64,000 nucleotides of DNA, from the NCBI RefSeq assembly GCF_041886205.1, contig NZ_CP169029.1; one strand, written 5' to 3'. The notes under the pieces were generated by a model. That model did no database searches and had not been told where the DNA came from. It worked only from the letters and a program-made list of their open reading frames with translations. Both the position numbers and the translations under genes were made by a program. The DNA is from Escherichia coli. Lineage in GTDB: Bacteria; Pseudomonadota; Gammaproteobacteria; Enterobacterales; Enterobacteriaceae. This document shows, piece after piece, positions 1,756 to 54,840 of the stretch. Each line of letters begins with the position of its first letter. The first letter of the stretch is position 1.

Positions 1756-4134
1756 ATGTCCAACAATGGCTCGTCACCGCTGGTGCTTTGGTATAACCAA
1801 CTCGGCATGAATGATGTAGACAGGGTTGGGGGCAAAAATGCCTCCCTGGGTGAAATGATTACTAACCTTTCCGGAATGGGTGTTTCCGTTCCGAATGGTT
1901 TCGCCACAACCGCCGACGCGTTTAACCAGTTTCTGGACCAAAGCGGCGTAAACCAGCGCATTTATGAACTGCTGGATAAAACGGATATTGACGATGTTAC
2001 CCAGCTTGCGAAAGCGGGCGCGCAAATCCGCCAGTGGATTATCGACACTCCCTTCCAGCCTGAGCTGGAAAATGCCATCCGCGAAGCTTATGCACAGCTT
2101 TCCGCCGATGACGAAAACGCCTCTTTTGCGGTGCGCTCTTCCGCTACTGCAGAAGATATGCCGGACGCTTCCTTTGCCGGTCAGCAGGAAACCTTCCTCA
2201 ACGTTCAGGGTTTTGACGCCGTTCTCGTGGCAGTGAAACATGTATTTGCTTCTCTGTTTAACGATCGCGCCATCTCATATCGTGTGCACCAGGGTTACGA
2301 TCACCGTGGTGTGGCGCTCTCCGCCGGTGTTCAACGGATGGTGCGCTCTGACCTCGCATCATCTGGCGTGATGTTCTCCATTGATACCGAATCCGGCTTT
2401 GACCAGGTGGTGTTTATCACTTCCGCATGGGGCCTTGGTGAGATGGTCGTGCAGGGGGCGGTTAACCCGGATGAGTTTTACGTCCATAAACCGACACTTG
2501 CAGCGAATCGCCCGGCTATCGTGCGTCGCACCATGGGGTCGAAAAAAATCCGCATGGTTTACGCGCCGACCCAGGAGCACGGCAAGCAGGTTAAAATCGA
2601 AGACGTACCGCAGGAACAGCGTGACATCTTCTCGCTGACCAACGAAGAAGTGCAGGAACTGGCAAAACAGGCCGTACAAATTGAGAAACACTACGGTCGC
2701 CCGATGGATATTGAGTGGGCGAAAGATGGCCACACCGGCAAACTGTTCATTGTGCAGGCGCGTCCGGAAACCGTGCGCTCACGCGGTCAGGTCATGGAGC
2801 GTTATACACTGCATTCACAGGGTAAGATTATCGCCGAAGGCCGTGCTATCGGTCATCGCATCGGCGCGGGACCGGTGAAAGTCATCCATGACATCAGCGA
2901 AATGAACCGCATCGAACCTGGCGACGTGCTGGTTACTGACATGACCGACCCGGACTGGGAACCGATCATGAAGAAAGCATCTGCCATCGTCACCAACCGT
3001 GGCGGTCGTACCTGTCACGCGGCGATCATCGCTCGTGAACTGGGCATTCCGGCGGTAGTGGGCTGTGGTGATGCAACAGAACGGATGAAAGACGGTGAGA
3101 ACGTCACTGTTTCTTGTGCCGAAGGTGATACCGGTTACGTCTATGCGGAGTTGCTGGAATTTAGCGTGAAAAGCTCCAGCGTAGAAACGATGCCGGATCT
3201 GCCGTTGAAAGTGATGATGAACGTCGGTAACCCGGACCGAGCTTTCGACTTCGCCTGTCTGCCGAACGAAGGCGTGGGCCTTGCGCGTCTGGAATTTATC
3301 ATCAACCGTATGATTGGCGTCCACCCACGCGCACTGCTTGAGTTTGACGATCAGGAACCGCAGTTGCAAAACGAAATCCGCGAGATGATGAAAGGTTTTG
3401 ATTCTCCGCGTGAATTTTACGTTGGTCGTCTGACTGAAGGGATCGCGACGCTGGGTGCCGCGTTTTATCCGAAGCGCGTCATTGTCCGTCTCTCTGATTT
3501 TAAATCGAACGAATATGCCAACCTGGTCGGTGGTGAGCGTTATGAGCCAGATGAAGAGAACCCGATGCTCGGCTTCCGTGGCGCGGGCCGCTATGTTTCC
3601 GACAGCTTCCGCGACTGTTTCGCGCTGGAGTGTGAAGCAGTGAAACGTGTGCGCAACGACATGGGGCTGACCAACGTTGAGATCATGATCCCGTTCGTGC
3701 GTACCGTAGATCAGGCGAAAGCGGTGGTTGAGGAACTGGCGCGTCAGGGGCTGAAGCGTGGTGAGAACGGGCTGAAAATCATCATGATGTGTGAAATCCC
3801 GTCCAACGCCTTGCTGGCCGAGCAGTTCCTCGAATATTTCGACGGCTTCTCAATTGGCTCAAACGATATGACGCAGCTGGCGCTCGGTCTGGACCGTGAC
3901 TCCGGCGTGGTGTCTGAATTGTTCGATGAGCGCAACGATGCGGTGAAAGCACTGCTGTCGATGGCTATCCGTGCCGCTAAGAAACAGGGCAAATATGTCG
4001 GGATTTGCGGTCAGGGGCCGTCCGACCACGAAGACTTTGCCGCATGGTTGATGGAAGAGGGGATCGATAGCCTGTCTCTGAACCCGGATACTGTGGTGCA
4101 AACCTGGTTAAGCCTGGCTGAACTGAAGAAATAA
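1756..4134 (+). CDS. ppsA: phosphoenolpyruvate synthase
   Basis: 792-aa ORF; PEP-utilising enzyme motifs ([13 protein letters not shown]); full-length match to PpsA. Confidence 0.96.
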
Positions 4135-51162: not shown

Positions 51163-52095
51163 ATGTGGTCAGAATATTCACTCGAAGTTGTTGATGCGGT
51201 AGCGCGTAATGGTAGTTTTAGCGCTGCGGCACAGGAGCTGCATCGCGTTCCTTCTGCGGTCAGCTATACCGTGCGTCAGCTGGAAGAGTGGCTGGCGGTG
51301 CCGCTCTTTGAAAGACGGCACCGTGATGTGGAACTGACCGCTGCCGGGGCGTGGTTTCTCAAAGAAGGGCGCTCTGTTGTCAAAAAAATGCAGATCACCC
51401 GCCAGCAATGTCAGCAGATAGCGAACGGCTGGCGCGGTCAGTTAGCTATCGCAGTGGATAATATTGTCAGGCCAGAACGTACACGGCAGATGATCGTTGA
51501 TTTTTATCGCCATTTTGACGACGTCGAACTTCTGGTCTTTCAGGAAGTGTTTAACGGTGTCTGGGATGCGCTTTCCGATGGGCGCGTGGAACTGGCGATT
51601 GGCGCAACACGCGCGATTCCGGTAGGCGGTCGTTATGCCTTCCGGGATATGGGGATGCTAAGCTGGAGTTGCGTTGTTGCCAGCCACCACCCGCTGGCGT
51701 TGATGGATGGCCCGTTCAGCGATGATACGTTGCGCAACTGGCCGTCGTTGGTGCGCGAAGACACCTCGCGAACGCTACCTAAACGTATTACCTGGTTGCT
51801 GGATAACCAAAAAAGAGTTGTCGTGCCTGACTGGGAATCATCGGCAACCTGTATCTCGGCAGGATTATGCATAGGGATGGTGCCAACACATTTCGCCAAA
51901 CCGTGGCTTAATGAGGGGAAGTGGGTAGCACTTGAATTGGAGAACCCCTTCCCGGATTCGGCATGTTGTCTGACATGGCAGCAAAATGATATGTCGCCTG
52001 CGTTAACCTGGCTGCTTGAGTATCTCGGCGATAGTGAGACGCTGAATAAGGAGTGGCTGCGGGAGCCGGAAGAGACTCCCGCAACGGGTGATTAA
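51163..52095 (+). CDS. punR: LysR-family transcriptional regulator
   Basis: 310-aa ORF with N-terminal HTH; divergent from punC. Confidence 0.88.
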
Positions 52096-53117
52096 CGACG
52101 ATAGTCGCGGAACGGGCCGTCAGCCACGGAGCGGCGTTCAATCAAACGCGGATGCACTTCAATGGACTGCGGTTCTTCACGTTTGTTGACGATACGATCC
52201 AACAGCATGTTGAACGCTGTTTCACCCAGCGAATCTTTTGGCTGATGGATCGTGGTCAGCGCCGGCGTAAAATAGCGCGCGTTGCGCACGTTATCATAAC
52301 CGATCAGCGAAACATCCTGCGGGACGCGCAGGCCCATTTCATCAGCAGCACAAAGTGCGCCCATTGCCATGATATCGCCACCACAGAAGACGGCAGTAGG
52401 GCGATGCGGCTGCGACAGGATTTGCTGCATGGCGCGATAACCAGATTCGGGTTCAAAGTCACCCTGCACAATCCAGCTTTCCGGCACCTTTATCATCGCT
52501 TCTTCCATCGCCTTCATAAAACCGGCAAGGCGGCCTGCGCCGGTGTTACGTTCCAGCGGGCCGGGGATGACGCCGATTTCGCGGTGGCCGCGTTCAATCA
52601 GATAACGCCCGGCCATGTAGCCGCCTTCGAACGCGTTATCAATGACCGCATCGGTGAAGTCAGCTTTTGCTTCACCCCAGTCCATGACCACCATTGGGAT
52701 ATGGCGATACTCTTCCAGCATCGCCAGCAACGGCTCTGGGTACTCAGAACACATCACCAGCAGACCATCGACGCGTTTTTGCGCCATCATCGACAGATAA
52801 GCCCGCTGTTTCTCAAGATTGTTCCACGCATTACCCAGAATCAGGGTGTAACCTTTCTGGAAGCAATTTTTTTCAACCGCTTCAATGATCTCGGCAAAAT
52901 AGGCCGCTTCGCTGCTGGTCGCCAGCAAACCGATAGACTTGGTGTGGTTAACCTTCAGGCTACGCGCCACCGCGCTAGGGGAGTAGTGTAATTCTTTAAT
53001 CGCTGCCCACACGGCGTTGCGCGTTTCTTCAGCGACGAAACGTGTTTTGTTGATCACGTGTGACACAGTTGTAGTGGAAACGTTTGCTCGTTTCGCTACA
53101 TCTTTTATTGTTGCCAT
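52092..53117 (-). CDS. purR: purine repressor (LacI family)
   Basis: 341-aa [36 protein letters not shown]... Confidence 0.96.
53075..53090. promoter_or_regulatory. PurR operator-like palindrome (CGAGCAAACGTTTCCA) inside the 5' end of purR
   Basis: Match to PurR box core GCAAACGTTT; purR is known to be autoregulated through downstream operators. Confidence 0.6.
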
Positions 53118-53161
53118 TCCATTTCACTCCAGACCCTAACTTCAGCTCCTGCAAAATCGCA

Positions 53162-53177
53162 AGGTAAACGTTTGCCT
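53162..53177. promoter_or_regulatory. PurR operator-like palindrome (AGGCAAACGTTTACCT) in the purR leader
   Basis: Match to PurR box core about 45 bp upstream of the purR start codon. Confidence 0.6.
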
Positions 53178-53415
53178 TTACACACCTTACGCACAACAAA
53201 AGTGTTGCGGTACGCCGGAAAAACGACACGGAGCGTCAGGAAGGGGTCAATGGCCAGTACGCAAATAGTGTAAGCGTGGAATTTTGGCCGATCTTGACGA
53301 AAAGGGGAAGTGGTAAAAACACTTATCATTATAAATGACGGGAGATTTTTTCATCACAGTGTGTAAAAATGCGTAATATCACTTTTTGTGTGGTAATAAA
53401 AAAGGAGAAAACTTG

Positions 53416-53505
53416 ATGAGCACCGACCTTAAATTTTCACTGGTAACAACGATTATCGTCCTCGGTTTGATCGTGGCCGTGGGTTTGACTGCCGCGCTGC
53501 ACTGA
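53416..53505 (+). CDS. ynhF: 29-aa single-TM small protein
   Basis: ATG preceded by AAAGGAGAAA RBS; translation MSTDLKFSLVTTIIVLGLIVAVGLTAALH; below the ORF-track length cutoff; +/-1 nt. Confidence 0.7.
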   Translation: MSTDLKFSLVTTIIVLGLIVAVGLTAALH

Positions 53506-53670
53506 TTTCCTCTCGAGGGAGCGCGTTCTCCCTCGCATCTCCTTCCTGTTTGTTAGCAAAATGGCAAAAGTGTTTTCTCTTTTTGTTATTTTCATTTTTT
53601 TGTGATTGCTGTCATGCTTTCGCCACTTTAATGAATATCGCGTAATGACGCGAAGAGGTGGAGATAAGGC

Positions 53671-54840
53671 ATGAAAATTAACTATCCGTTGCTGGCGCTG
53701 GCGATTGGCGCGTTTGGTATCGGGACAACGGAGTTCTCGCCAATGGGCTTATTGCCCGTCATTGCGCGCGGTGTGGATGTCTCGATTCCCGCTGCCGGAA
53801 TGTTAATCAGTGCCTATGCAGTTGGCGTAATGGTGGGCGCGCCGCTGATGACGCTTCTACTTTCTCATCGTGCCCGCCGCAGTGCGTTGATTTTCCTGAT
53901 GGCGATTTTCACGCTCGGCAACGTACTTTCCGCCATCGCGCCGGATTATATGACTCTCATGCTTTCACGCATTTTGACCAGCCTGAATCACGGAGCATTT
54001 TTTGGTTTGGGTTCAGTTGTGGCCGCAAGCGTGGTGCCAAAACATAAACAGGCCAGCGCAGTTGCCACTATGTTTATGGGGTTAACCCTGGCAAATATCG
54101 GTGGCGTGCCGGCGGCGACCTGGTTGGGTGAAACCATCGGCTGGCGGATGTCATTTCTGGCAACGGCGGGGCTGGGCGTGATTTCAATGGTAAGTCTGTT
54201 CTTCTCATTACCTAAAGGTGGTGCAGGGGCACGACCTGAAGTGAAAAAAGAGCTGGCGGTATTAATGCGTCCGCAGGTGCTGTCTGCATTGCTGACGACG
54301 GTACTGGGAGCTGGTGCAATGTTTACCCTCTACACCTATATCTCTCCGGTACTGCAAAGTATTGCCCACGCAACACCGGTGTTCGTCACGGCAATGCTGG
54401 TGCTGATTGGTGTCGGATTCTCTATCGGTAACTATCTCGGCGGCAAACTGGCAGATCGTTCAGTTAACGGCACGTTGAAAGGCTTTTTGTTGTTGTTGAT
54501 GGTGATTATGCTGGCAATCCCGTTCCTGGCCCGCAATGAGTTCGGCGCAGCTATTAGCATGGTGGTGTGGGGCGCAGCAACCTTTGCGGTCGTACCGCCG
54601 TTACAGATGCGCGTGATGCGTGTCGCCAGTGAAGCGCCAGGTCTGTCTTCATCAGTCAATATTGGTGCCTTTAATCTTGGAAATGCGCTGGGAGCAGCGG
54701 CTGGTGGTGCGGTAATTTCCGCTGGGCTGGGATACAGCTTTGTGCCGGTGATGGGGGCGATTGTCGCGGGACTGGCATTATTGCTGGTGTTTATGTCAGC
54801 CAGAAAACAACCTGAAACAGTTTGCGTTGCTAACAGCTAA
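53671..54840 (+). CDS. ydhP: MFS transporter
   Basis: 389-aa 12-TM ORF. Confidence 0.88.
   Translation: MKINYPLLALAIGAFGIGTTEFSPMGLLPVIARGVDVSIPAAGMLISAYAVGVMVGAPLMTLLLSHRARRSALIFLMAIFTLGNVLSAIAPDYMTLMLSRILTSLNHGAFFGLGSVVAASVVPKHKQASAVATMFMGLTLANIGGVPAATWLGETIGWRMSFLATAGLGVISMVSLFFSLPKGGAGARPEVKKELAVLMRPQVLSALLTTVLGAGAMFTLYTYISPVLQSIAHATPVFVTAMLVLIGVGFSIGNYLGGKLADRSVNGTLKGFLLLLMVIMLAIPFLARNEFGAAISMVVWGAATFAVVPPLQMRVMRVASEAPGLSSSVNIGAFNLGNALGAAAGGAVISAGLGYSFVPVMGAIVAGLALLLVFMSARKQPETVCVANS

What the first reader, a model, noticed from the sequence alone, without database searches (positions are those of the whole stretch)
53416..53505. 29-codon single-helix ORF (ynhF-like) between purR and ydhP, missed by the ORF track
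A strong RBS (AAAGGAGAAA) precedes an ATG that opens MSTDLKFSLVTTIIVLGLIVAVGLTAALH*, an almost purely hydrophobic helix. Small membrane proteins of this type are often regulators of transporters or sensors, and this one is adjacent to the MFS gene ydhP.
Basis: partly seen in the sequence, partly recalled or inferred. Interest (0 to 1): 0.25.

Follow-up and report, generated by a model that had tools for sequence, protein, structure and literature searches.

The report
Known gene cydH (ynhF), oxidase subunit
The 29-codon reading frame is real, but it is the already characterised E. coli gene ynhF, now called cydH, whose single-helix protein is the fourth subunit of the respiratory enzyme cytochrome bd-I oxidase and not a regulator of the neighbouring transporter.

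Summary
Window 53416-53505 (+) is an ATG-initiated 29-codon ORF behind an AAGGAG Shine-Dalgarno sequence, and it encodes MSTDLKFSLVTTIIVLGLIVAVGLTAALH. It is not "ynhF-like": it is ynhF itself, now named cydH (also cydY). The peptide is 29/29 identical to chain H of the cryo-EM structure of E. coli cytochrome bd-I (PDB 6RKO). It passes the NCBIfam equivalog model for CydH (50.2 bits, cut-off 30). RefSeq annotates cydH at this spot, between purR and ydhP, in all ten listed genomes, and 5,420 of 5,426 complete E. coli genomes carry the region. In 80 Enterobacteriaceae species the ORF is always intact, with dN/dS about 0.08 in frame and above 1.4 in the other two sense frames. Published mass spectrometry detects the intact formylated 29-residue protein. 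The suggested link to the MFS gene ydhP is not supported. Six lineages keep cydH but lack ydhP, and a conserved stem-loop separates the two genes. In the published structures CydH sits in a cleft of CydA and shields heme b595 from the membrane. Verdict: already known, low interest. One side note: Rfam's "sRNA" family STnc550 covers this coding gene.

The parts
53416..53505 (+). cydH (ynhF, cydY) coding sequence: 29 codons plus TGA. It encodes the single-transmembrane-helix accessory subunit of cytochrome bd-I oxidase.
   Evidence: Sequence and translation. 29/29 identity to PDB 6RKO chain H. NCBIfam NF033411 equivalog, 50.2 bits against a cut-off of 30. RefSeq annotates cydH here. Intact in 80/80 orthologous loci, dN/dS 0.08.
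53402..53407 (+). Shine-Dalgarno sequence AAGGAG, with its last G 8 nt upstream of the ATG.
   Evidence: Read directly. AAGGAG, or GGGGG/GGAG variants, occupy the same position in the 80 orthologous loci.
53362..53370 (+). Candidate extended -10 promoter element TG-T-AAAAAT for cydH. This is inferred, not mapped. It would give a leader of roughly 40 nt.
   Evidence: TG[T/C]AAAAAT is the consensus here, kept in all but four of the 35 aligned taxa shown; L065, L074, L075 and L079 carry TGGGAAAAT. The generic sigma-70 scan called no + strand promoter here, so this rests on conservation and consensus resemblance only.
53513..53534 (+). G+C-rich stem-loop (CGAGGGAG-loop-CTCCCTCG) starting 8 nt after the stop codon. 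It is the likely 3'-end, stabilising or weak terminator hairpin separating cydH from ydhP.
   Evidence: Fold of -13.6 kcal/mol. A comparable hairpin is present in about 75 of 79 distinct orthologous sequences, with mean MFE -15.6 against -7.3 for shuffles. Stem sequences differ (GAGGGAG, GGGGGAGAG, GGGCCGC, GGAGAGGG) but pairing is kept. Most lack a U tract, and the terminator scan did not call it.
53118..53415 (.). The 298-bp purR-cydH divergent intergenic region. The purR-proximal part is the purR leader with the PurR operator at 53163-53177. The cydH-proximal part holds the cydH promoter and leader.
   Evidence: The spacing between the purR start and the cydH start is 288-300 bp in all 80 loci. 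There are blocks of at least 95% column conservation. The operator sequence is identical to the site listed for ynhF/purR in PMC5110547.

Best explanation
Window 53416-53505 (+) is the E. coli gene cydH (older names ynhF and cydY). It is transcribed on its own, divergently from purR, and translated from the ATG at 53416 behind a strong Shine-Dalgarno sequence. The product is a 29-residue protein that keeps its N-formyl-methionine and is little more than one transmembrane helix. The helix inserts into the inner membrane and binds CydA of cytochrome bd-I ubiquinol oxidase (CydA-CydB-CydX-CydH). It sits in the cleft between CydA transmembrane helices 1 and 9, opposite CydX. There it covers the lateral opening that leads from the lipid phase to heme b595. 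That opening is the O2 entry route in the Geobacillus enzyme and a menaquinone site in mycobacterial enzymes. With it covered, O2 reaches heme d through a separate narrow channel. Shown: the identity of the gene, its translation, purifying selection on it, and its physical place in the complex (published structures). Inferred: the functional consequence of blocking the b595 access, and the promoter and terminator assignments made here.
For: The peptide is 29/29 identical to PDB 6RKO chain H, named 'Cytochrome bd-I ubiquinol oxidase CydH (YnhF)'. The same sequence occurs in 8 PDB entries. It matches NCBIfam equivalog NF033411, 'cytochrome bd-I oxidase subunit CydH', at 50.2 bits against a cut-off of 30, end to end. 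The 701-bp stretch is present in 5,425 of 5,426 complete E. coli genomes, and RefSeq annotates purR, cydH and ydhP there in all ten listed genomes. PMC6853902 identified YnhF by nano-LC-ESI-MS/MS as the fourth subunit seen in the cryo-EM map. It places the gene between ydhP and purR and proposes that the subunit blocks the O2 channel to heme b595. PMC8951039 places it in the cleft between CydA TM helices 1 and 9. PMC8585947 reports that it is absent from bd-II. PMC12529367 detected intact CydH at 100% coverage with formyl-Met by top-down MS. Comparative test run here: 80/80 Enterobacteriaceae loci have an intact 29-codon ORF with ATG and a purine-rich Shine-Dalgarno-like sequence. pS is 0.63 and pN 0.10, so dN/dS is 0.08 in frame. 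The other sense frames give 1.4 and 2.0.
Against: Nothing contradicts the identity. Several points remain untested. The window does not contain cydABX, so co-occurrence with the oxidase genes could not be checked here. No loss-of-function phenotype for cydH turned up in the papers I could read, so 'blocks O2 access' is a structural inference by the depositors. The original discovery papers (Hemm 2008 and 2010, Guan 2011) and the paper behind 6RKO (cited in the reviews I read as Safarian et al. 2019) were not readable in the library, so low-oxygen induction is cited second-hand through PMC6853902. A local Pfam-A scan found no family, although PF28012.1 is precomputed on all 43 database relatives.
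Confidence: 0.97

Rival explanations
1. The small protein is a regulator or accessory factor of the adjacent MFS transporter YdhP, in the manner of AcrZ with AcrB or MgtS with MgtA.
For: ydhP follows cydH on the same strand in 73 of 80 loci. Single-helix proteins that modulate transporters are a known class (PMC12648545).
Against: Six loci with sufficient downstream sequence keep an intact cydH and have no ydhP: L004, L031 (Salmonella arizonae), L065, L074, L075 and L079. A conserved hairpin and about 165 nt separate the two genes. The protein co-purifies with and is resolved inside cytochrome bd-I. None of the papers I read that mention ynhF or cydH reports a YdhP interaction.
Confidence: 0.02
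2. The locus is primarily a non-coding regulatory RNA (Rfam STnc550), and the ORF is incidental or the transcript is dual-function.
For: Rfam RF02081 'Enterobacterial sRNA STnc550' matches 53118-53508 (+) end to end at 396 bits against a gathering score of 48. The intergenic region is much more conserved than neutral sequence.
Against: The 3' quarter of the Rfam match is a CDS under strong purifying selection at the protein level, with dN/dS 0.08. Its protein product is observed directly. The conserved 5' part coincides with the purR leader, its operator and its promoter on the other strand, which explains the conservation without an sRNA. The model's 5' end abuts the purR start codon, which looks like an intergenic-region boundary and not a mapped 5' end. 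No paper in the library mentions STnc550.
Confidence: 0.03
3. It is a chance ORF: a hydrophobic peptide that happens to be open in an intergenic region.
For: Short ORFs are abundant. 66 ORFs of at least 20 aa overlap the surrounding 4 kb.
Against: The ORF is intact in 80/80 loci with identical length, start, a purine-rich Shine-Dalgarno-like sequence and stop position. Substitutions follow codon periodicity and dN/dS is 0.08. The protein has been seen by MS and cryo-EM.
Confidence: 0

Closest known systems
CydH / CydY / YnhF of E. coli K-12 (UniProt A5A618; PDB 6RKO chain H; NCBIfam NF033411)
   Same: Identical in all 29 residues, with the same genomic position between purR and ydhP and the same orientation.
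   Different: Nothing. This is the same gene.
CydX (37 aa, E. coli), with AppX (bd-II) and CydS (Geobacillus)
   Same: All are single-helix accessory subunits that bind CydA/AppC of a bd-type oxidase through mainly hydrophobic contacts (PMC8951039, PMC12648545).
   Different: CydX is encoded in the cydABX operon, binds the opposite face of CydA near heme b558, and is needed for assembly or stability of the enzyme. CydH is an orphan gene away from the cyd operon and binds between CydA TM1 and TM9 next to heme b595. It was found only in bd-I and not in the bd-II, Geobacillus or mycobacterial enzymes. The 103 relatives found here were, among the 80 kept, all Enterobacteriaceae, although the search patterns only reach close relatives.
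Small membrane-protein modulators of transporters and sensors (AcrZ, MgtS, MgrB, KdpF)
   Same: Similar size, a single transmembrane helix, and action by binding a larger membrane protein (PMC12648545).
   Different: The partner here is a respiratory oxidase, not a transporter or sensor. Adjacency to the MFS gene ydhP is not conserved wherever cydH is.
Rfam RF02081 STnc550
   Same: Same locus and strand, full-length match at 396 bits.
   Different: The Rfam family is typed as an sRNA gene. Here its 3' part is a protein-coding sequence under purifying selection, and its 5' part overlaps the purR leader on the other strand.

Membership tests
CydH/YnhF (NCBIfam NF033411, cytochrome bd-I oxidase subunit CydH) | Sequence match to the curated equivalog model above its cut-off, end to end | tested here: met
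   50.2 bits against a cut-off of 30. Residues 1-29 align to profile positions 1-29 of 29.
CydH/YnhF (NCBIfam NF033411, cytochrome bd-I oxidase subunit CydH) | Identity with the polypeptide resolved as the fourth subunit in solved bd-I structures | tested here: met
   29/29 identical to 6RKO chain H. The same sequence occurs in 8 PDB entries.
CydH/YnhF (NCBIfam NF033411, cytochrome bd-I oxidase subunit CydH) | About 29 residues forming one hydrophobic transmembrane helix with the conserved N-terminal M-x-T-D-L-K-F-S motif and C-terminal L-H | tested here: met
   Sequence read directly. The motif is kept across 45 distinct orthologous peptides.
CydH/YnhF (NCBIfam NF033411, cytochrome bd-I oxidase subunit CydH) | Orphan gene located between purR and ydhP, outside the cyd operon | tested here: met
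   RefSeq annotation of the identical stretch. PMC6853902 states the same position. purR lies divergently upstream in 80/80 loci.
CydH/YnhF (NCBIfam NF033411, cytochrome bd-I oxidase subunit CydH) | Translated, under purifying selection | tested here: met
   dN/dS is 0.08 in frame and above 1.4 in the other sense frames. The intact protein was detected by top-down MS (PMC12529367).
CydH/YnhF (NCBIfam NF033411, cytochrome bd-I oxidase subunit CydH) | Co-occurrence with a long-Q-loop cytochrome bd-I (cydABX) in the same genome, and physical binding to CydA | not testable with these tools
   cydABX is not near this locus, and whole genomes of the loci were not available. Binding is documented for E. 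coli in the literature.
Small-protein regulators of an adjacent transporter (AcrZ/MgtS-type) | Evolutionary coupling with the partner transporter gene (here ydhP) | tested here: not met
   cydH is retained without ydhP in 6 loci that have enough downstream sequence.
Small-protein regulators of an adjacent transporter (AcrZ/MgtS-type) | Physical or functional interaction with the transporter | not testable with these tools
   None of the ynhF or cydH passages I read describes such an interaction.
Rfam RF02081 STnc550 (enterobacterial sRNA) | Covariance-model score above the gathering threshold | tested here: met
   396.1 bits against 48, model positions 1-388 of 388.
Rfam RF02081 STnc550 (enterobacterial sRNA) | Non-coding transcript | tested here: not met
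   Positions 53416-53505 of the match are a CDS with dN/dS 0.08 and a detected protein product.

The most novel reading that the evidence does not exclude
The strictly conserved head-to-head arrangement with purR suggests a possible second role. It is seen in 80/80 loci, with a 288-300 bp spacer carrying many near-invariant blocks, and Rfam describes the whole + strand stretch as the sRNA STnc550. This could mean that a longer + strand transcript exists that is both the cydH mRNA and an antisense or divergent-promoter regulator of the purR leader. That would couple purine-repressor expression to assembly of the micro-aerobic oxidase. The evidence here does not exclude this, because no 5' ends could be mapped.
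Probability: 0.04. Interest if true: 0.4.

Novelty: already known. Interest (0 to 1): 0.05.

Why it matters
For a genome scan, the result is a calibration point. The biology is worth knowing though not new. CydH shows that a respiratory enzyme studied for decades carried an unnoticed subunit encoded far from its operon. It may explain why the E. coli and Geobacillus bd oxidases use different O2 routes. The one practical by-product concerns Rfam family STnc550, which is typed as an sRNA. It should be read as the cydH mRNA region plus the purR leader.

Tried and rejected
A tandem duplicate of the peptide worked. It returned only mis-called, extended or frameshifted versions, apparently because the collection holds no proteins this short. 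Those versions supplied the variants for alignment A1.
2. The Pfam-A scan gave nothing.
3. The generic promoter and terminator scan found no + strand promoter upstream of cydH and did not call the hairpin after it. The promoter and hairpin assignments therefore rest on conservation.
4. Simple consensus searches for FNR and ArcA boxes near the cydH promoter found nothing convincing. The reported low-oxygen induction is left unexplained at the sequence level.
5. A literature search for STnc550 returned no papers.
6. The original YnhF papers (PMC2614699, PMC2798279, PMC3018292) are not held. The Ribo-seq preprint 10.1101/511675 does not mention ynhF in its main text.
7. The antisense 52-aa ORF at 53437-53595 (-) was considered and rejected. 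Its frame has a pN/pS-derived ratio of 1.28. The low ratio of 0.21 in another antisense frame is the expected artefact of shared third positions.
8. I did not run the large representative-protein search or structure prediction, because an identical solved structure exists.

Full report
**Observation.** The sequence at window 53416-53505 (+) reads ATG AGC ACC ... CAC TGA.

- AAGGAG lies at 53402-53407, with its last G 8 nt before the ATG.
- The mechanical ORF list extends the frame to an upstream TTG (53386, 39 aa). Published top-down MS of the intact 29-aa protein and the 29-residue PDB chain H support the ATG at 53416.
- The neighbours are purR (52092-53117, -) and an MFS gene (53671-54840, +). 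punR lies beyond purR, and sodB beyond the MFS gene.
- A 29-codon ORF is not remarkable on its own. 66 ORFs of at least 20 aa overlap this 4-kb stretch.

**Identity.** The peptide is 29/29 identical to chain H of PDB 6RKO, deposited as [quoted passage not shown]. The same sequence occurs in seven further PDB entries.

- It matches the NCBIfam equivalog model NF033411 (small_mem_YnhF, "cytochrome bd-I oxidase subunit CydH") end to end, at 50.2 bits against a cut-off of 30.
- The 701-bp stretch 53100-53800 is present in 5,425 of 5,426 complete E. coli genomes, and at 99% identity or more in 5,290 of them. All ten listed RefSeq records annotate purR, cydH and ydhP under it.
- In strain CFSAN061770 the cydH CDS (WP_000102278.1) lies exactly where the ORF lies in the window.
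- The window is therefore E. coli chromosome, and the finding is the gene ynhF, also called cydH or cydY, and not something "ynhF-like".

**What is known about it (from papers).**

- Thesseling et al. (PMC6853902) found a fourth, single-helix subunit of about 3 kDa in their cryo-EM map of E. coli bd oxidase. They identified it by nano-LC-ESI-MS/MS as YnhF and noted that the gene lies between ydhP and purR, outside the cydABX operon.
- The same paper cites earlier work that the protein is made at low oxygen and keeps its N-formyl-methionine. It proposed that the subunit blocks the O2 channel leading to heme b595.
- A review (PMC8951039) places the helix in the cleft between CydA TM helices 1 and 9. 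That position is occupied by a menaquinone in mycobacterial enzymes. The review contrasts this functional role with the structural role of CydX.
- The subunit was not detected in E. coli bd-II (PMC8585947). No additional small subunit was seen in the mycobacterial bd oxidase either (PMC8324918).
- Top-down proteomics detected intact CydH at 100% coverage with formyl-Met (PMC12529367).
- Cryo-EM work from 2025 again resolves CydA-CydB-CydX-CydH (bioRxiv 10.1101/2025.10.10.681541).

An alignment of peptide variants was used to scan one genome per species of bacteria and archaea. 103 stretches encoded a relative. The 80 kept are all Enterobacteriaceae: Escherichia, Citrobacter, Salmonella, Enterobacter, Klebsiella, Raoultella, Kosakonia, Leclercia, Lelliottia, Atlantibacter, Franconibacter, Cedecea, Buttiauxella and others.

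- All 80 have an ATG, 29 codons, a stop at codon 30 and a purine-rich Shine-Dalgarno-like sequence upstream, AAGGAG in most loci. 45 distinct peptides and 77 distinct nucleotide sequences were found.
- Variable sites number 19, 13 and 28 of 29 at codon positions 1, 2 and 3. The corresponding mean entropies are 0.40, 0.24 and 1.24.
- Pooled Nei-Gojobori pS is 0.63 and pN is 0.10, giving dN/dS of 0.08 in frame.
- The other two sense frames give 1.41 and 1.99.
- The antisense frame that holds a 52-aa ORF (53437-53595, -) gives 1.28.

**Neighbourhood.** purR lies divergently upstream in 80/80 loci, with a start-to-start spacer of 288-300 bp. ydhP follows in 73 loci.

- Six loci with ample downstream sequence keep cydH and lack ydhP: L004, L031 (Salmonella enterica subsp. 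arizonae), L065, L074, L075 and L079. In five of them sodB follows directly.
- The Salmonella Typhimurium table in PMC10268841 lists "purR<>ynhF" and sodB about 1.1 kb apart, which fits this.
- cydH therefore does not depend on ydhP.

**Downstream hairpin.** A G+C-rich hairpin begins 8 nt after the stop codon (53513-53534, -13.6 kcal/mol).

- A comparable hairpin is present in about 75 of 79 distinct orthologous sequences. Stem sequences differ but pairing is retained.
- Mean MFE is -15.6 against -7.3 kcal/mol for shuffles.
- Most lack a U tract, and the terminator scan did not call it.
- I read it as a 3'-end, stabilising or weak terminator element that separates cydH from ydhP. This is an inference.

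**Upstream region.** The intergenic region is highly conserved.

- The purR-proximal part carries the PurR operator at 53163-53177. A second operator lies inside purR at 53074-53088. Both are identical to the sites listed for ynhF/purR in a GalR ChIP-chip study (PMC5110547). This part belongs to purR autoregulation, according to my own recollection of the purR literature.
- Next to cydH, TG[T/C]AAAAAT at 53362-53370 is kept in all but four of the 35 aligned taxa shown. It is a plausible extended -10 element and would give a leader of about 40 nt. This is an inference, because no transcript ends were available.
- I found no convincing FNR or ArcA box.

**Side observation.** Rfam RF02081, "Enterobacterial sRNA STnc550", matches 53118-53508 (+) over its full 388 positions at 396 bits.

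- The match begins one base after the purR start codon and ends three bases after the cydH stop.
- Its 3' quarter is therefore the cydH coding sequence, and its 5' half is the complement of the purR leader and promoter.
- The family's conservation is explained by a protein-coding gene and a neighbouring gene's control region. Whether a long + strand RNA exists could not be tested.

**Mechanism committed to.** cydH is a short monocistronic gene. Its 29-residue product inserts as one transmembrane helix and binds CydA of cytochrome bd-I. There it shields heme b595 from the lipid phase, so that O2 reaches heme d through the narrow CydB-CydA channel.

- Shown: identity, translation, selection, and position in the complex.
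- Inferred by the structural papers: the consequence for O2 routing.
- Confidence is 0.97 for identity and role as a bd-I subunit, and lower for the channel-blocking consequence.

**Verdict.** Novelty: already known. Interest: low.

Noticed in passing
window 53118-53508 (+): Rfam RF02081 'STnc550 sRNA' matches end to end at 396 bits. It runs from the base after the purR start codon to 3 nt past the cydH stop. It therefore contains a protein-coding gene and the complement of the purR leader. The sRNA label looks doubtful. No paper in the library mentions STnc550.
   Followed up: partly
window 53163-53177 and 53074-53088: Two LacI-family operator palindromes (AGGCAAACGTTTACC on the - strand, GTGGAAACGTTTGCT on the + strand). 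They are identical to the sites listed for ynhF/purR in GalR ChIP-chip (PMC5110547) and are most likely the purR autoregulatory operators. One lies in the purR leader and one inside the purR CDS.
   Followed up: partly
window 53086-53100 (+): GCTCGTTTCGCTACA matches 14 of 15 bases of the MarA/RamA motif reported for the purR<>ynhF interval in Salmonella Typhimurium (PMC10268841). It lies inside the purR coding sequence.
   Followed up: no
window 53513-53534 (+); positions 3095-3130 of the orthologous loci (L002-L081): A stem-loop after the cydH stop is conserved across genera with different stem sequences (GAGGGAG, GGGGGAGAG, GGGCCGC, GGAGAGGG). It usually has no U tract. The four Atlantibacter-type loci (L054, L058, L061, L063) lack it.
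   Followed up: partly
L004, L031, L065, L074, L075, L079 (downstream of position 3090): ydhP is absent in these lineages, Salmonella enterica subsp. arizonae among them, while cydH is retained. In five of them sodB follows cydH directly.
   Followed up: yes
window 53362-53370 (+): TG[T/C]AAAAAT is kept in all but four of the 35 aligned taxa shown (L065, L074, L075 and L079 carry TGGGAAAAT). It is a candidate extended -10 for cydH. An almost invariant GATTTTT block lies about 17 bp upstream. No FNR or ArcA consensus was found that would explain the reported low-oxygen induction.
   Followed up: partly
window 53437-53595 (-): A 52-aa antisense ORF overlaps cydH. Its frame shows no purifying selection (ratio 1.28), so it is not coding.
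   Followed up: yes
proteins P0002, P0004, P0023, P0035-P0043: Public assemblies contain cydH calls with C-terminal frameshifts that read through into 70-77-aa products. One E. coli variant has an Ala-Val duplication in the helix (31 aa). I did not determine whether these are sequencing errors or real variants.
   Followed up: no
Pfam PF28012.1 is precomputed on all 43 database relatives, yet the local Pfam-A scan of the 29-aa peptide returned no family. Either the local copy lacks that model or HMMER filters drop so short a query.
   Followed up: no
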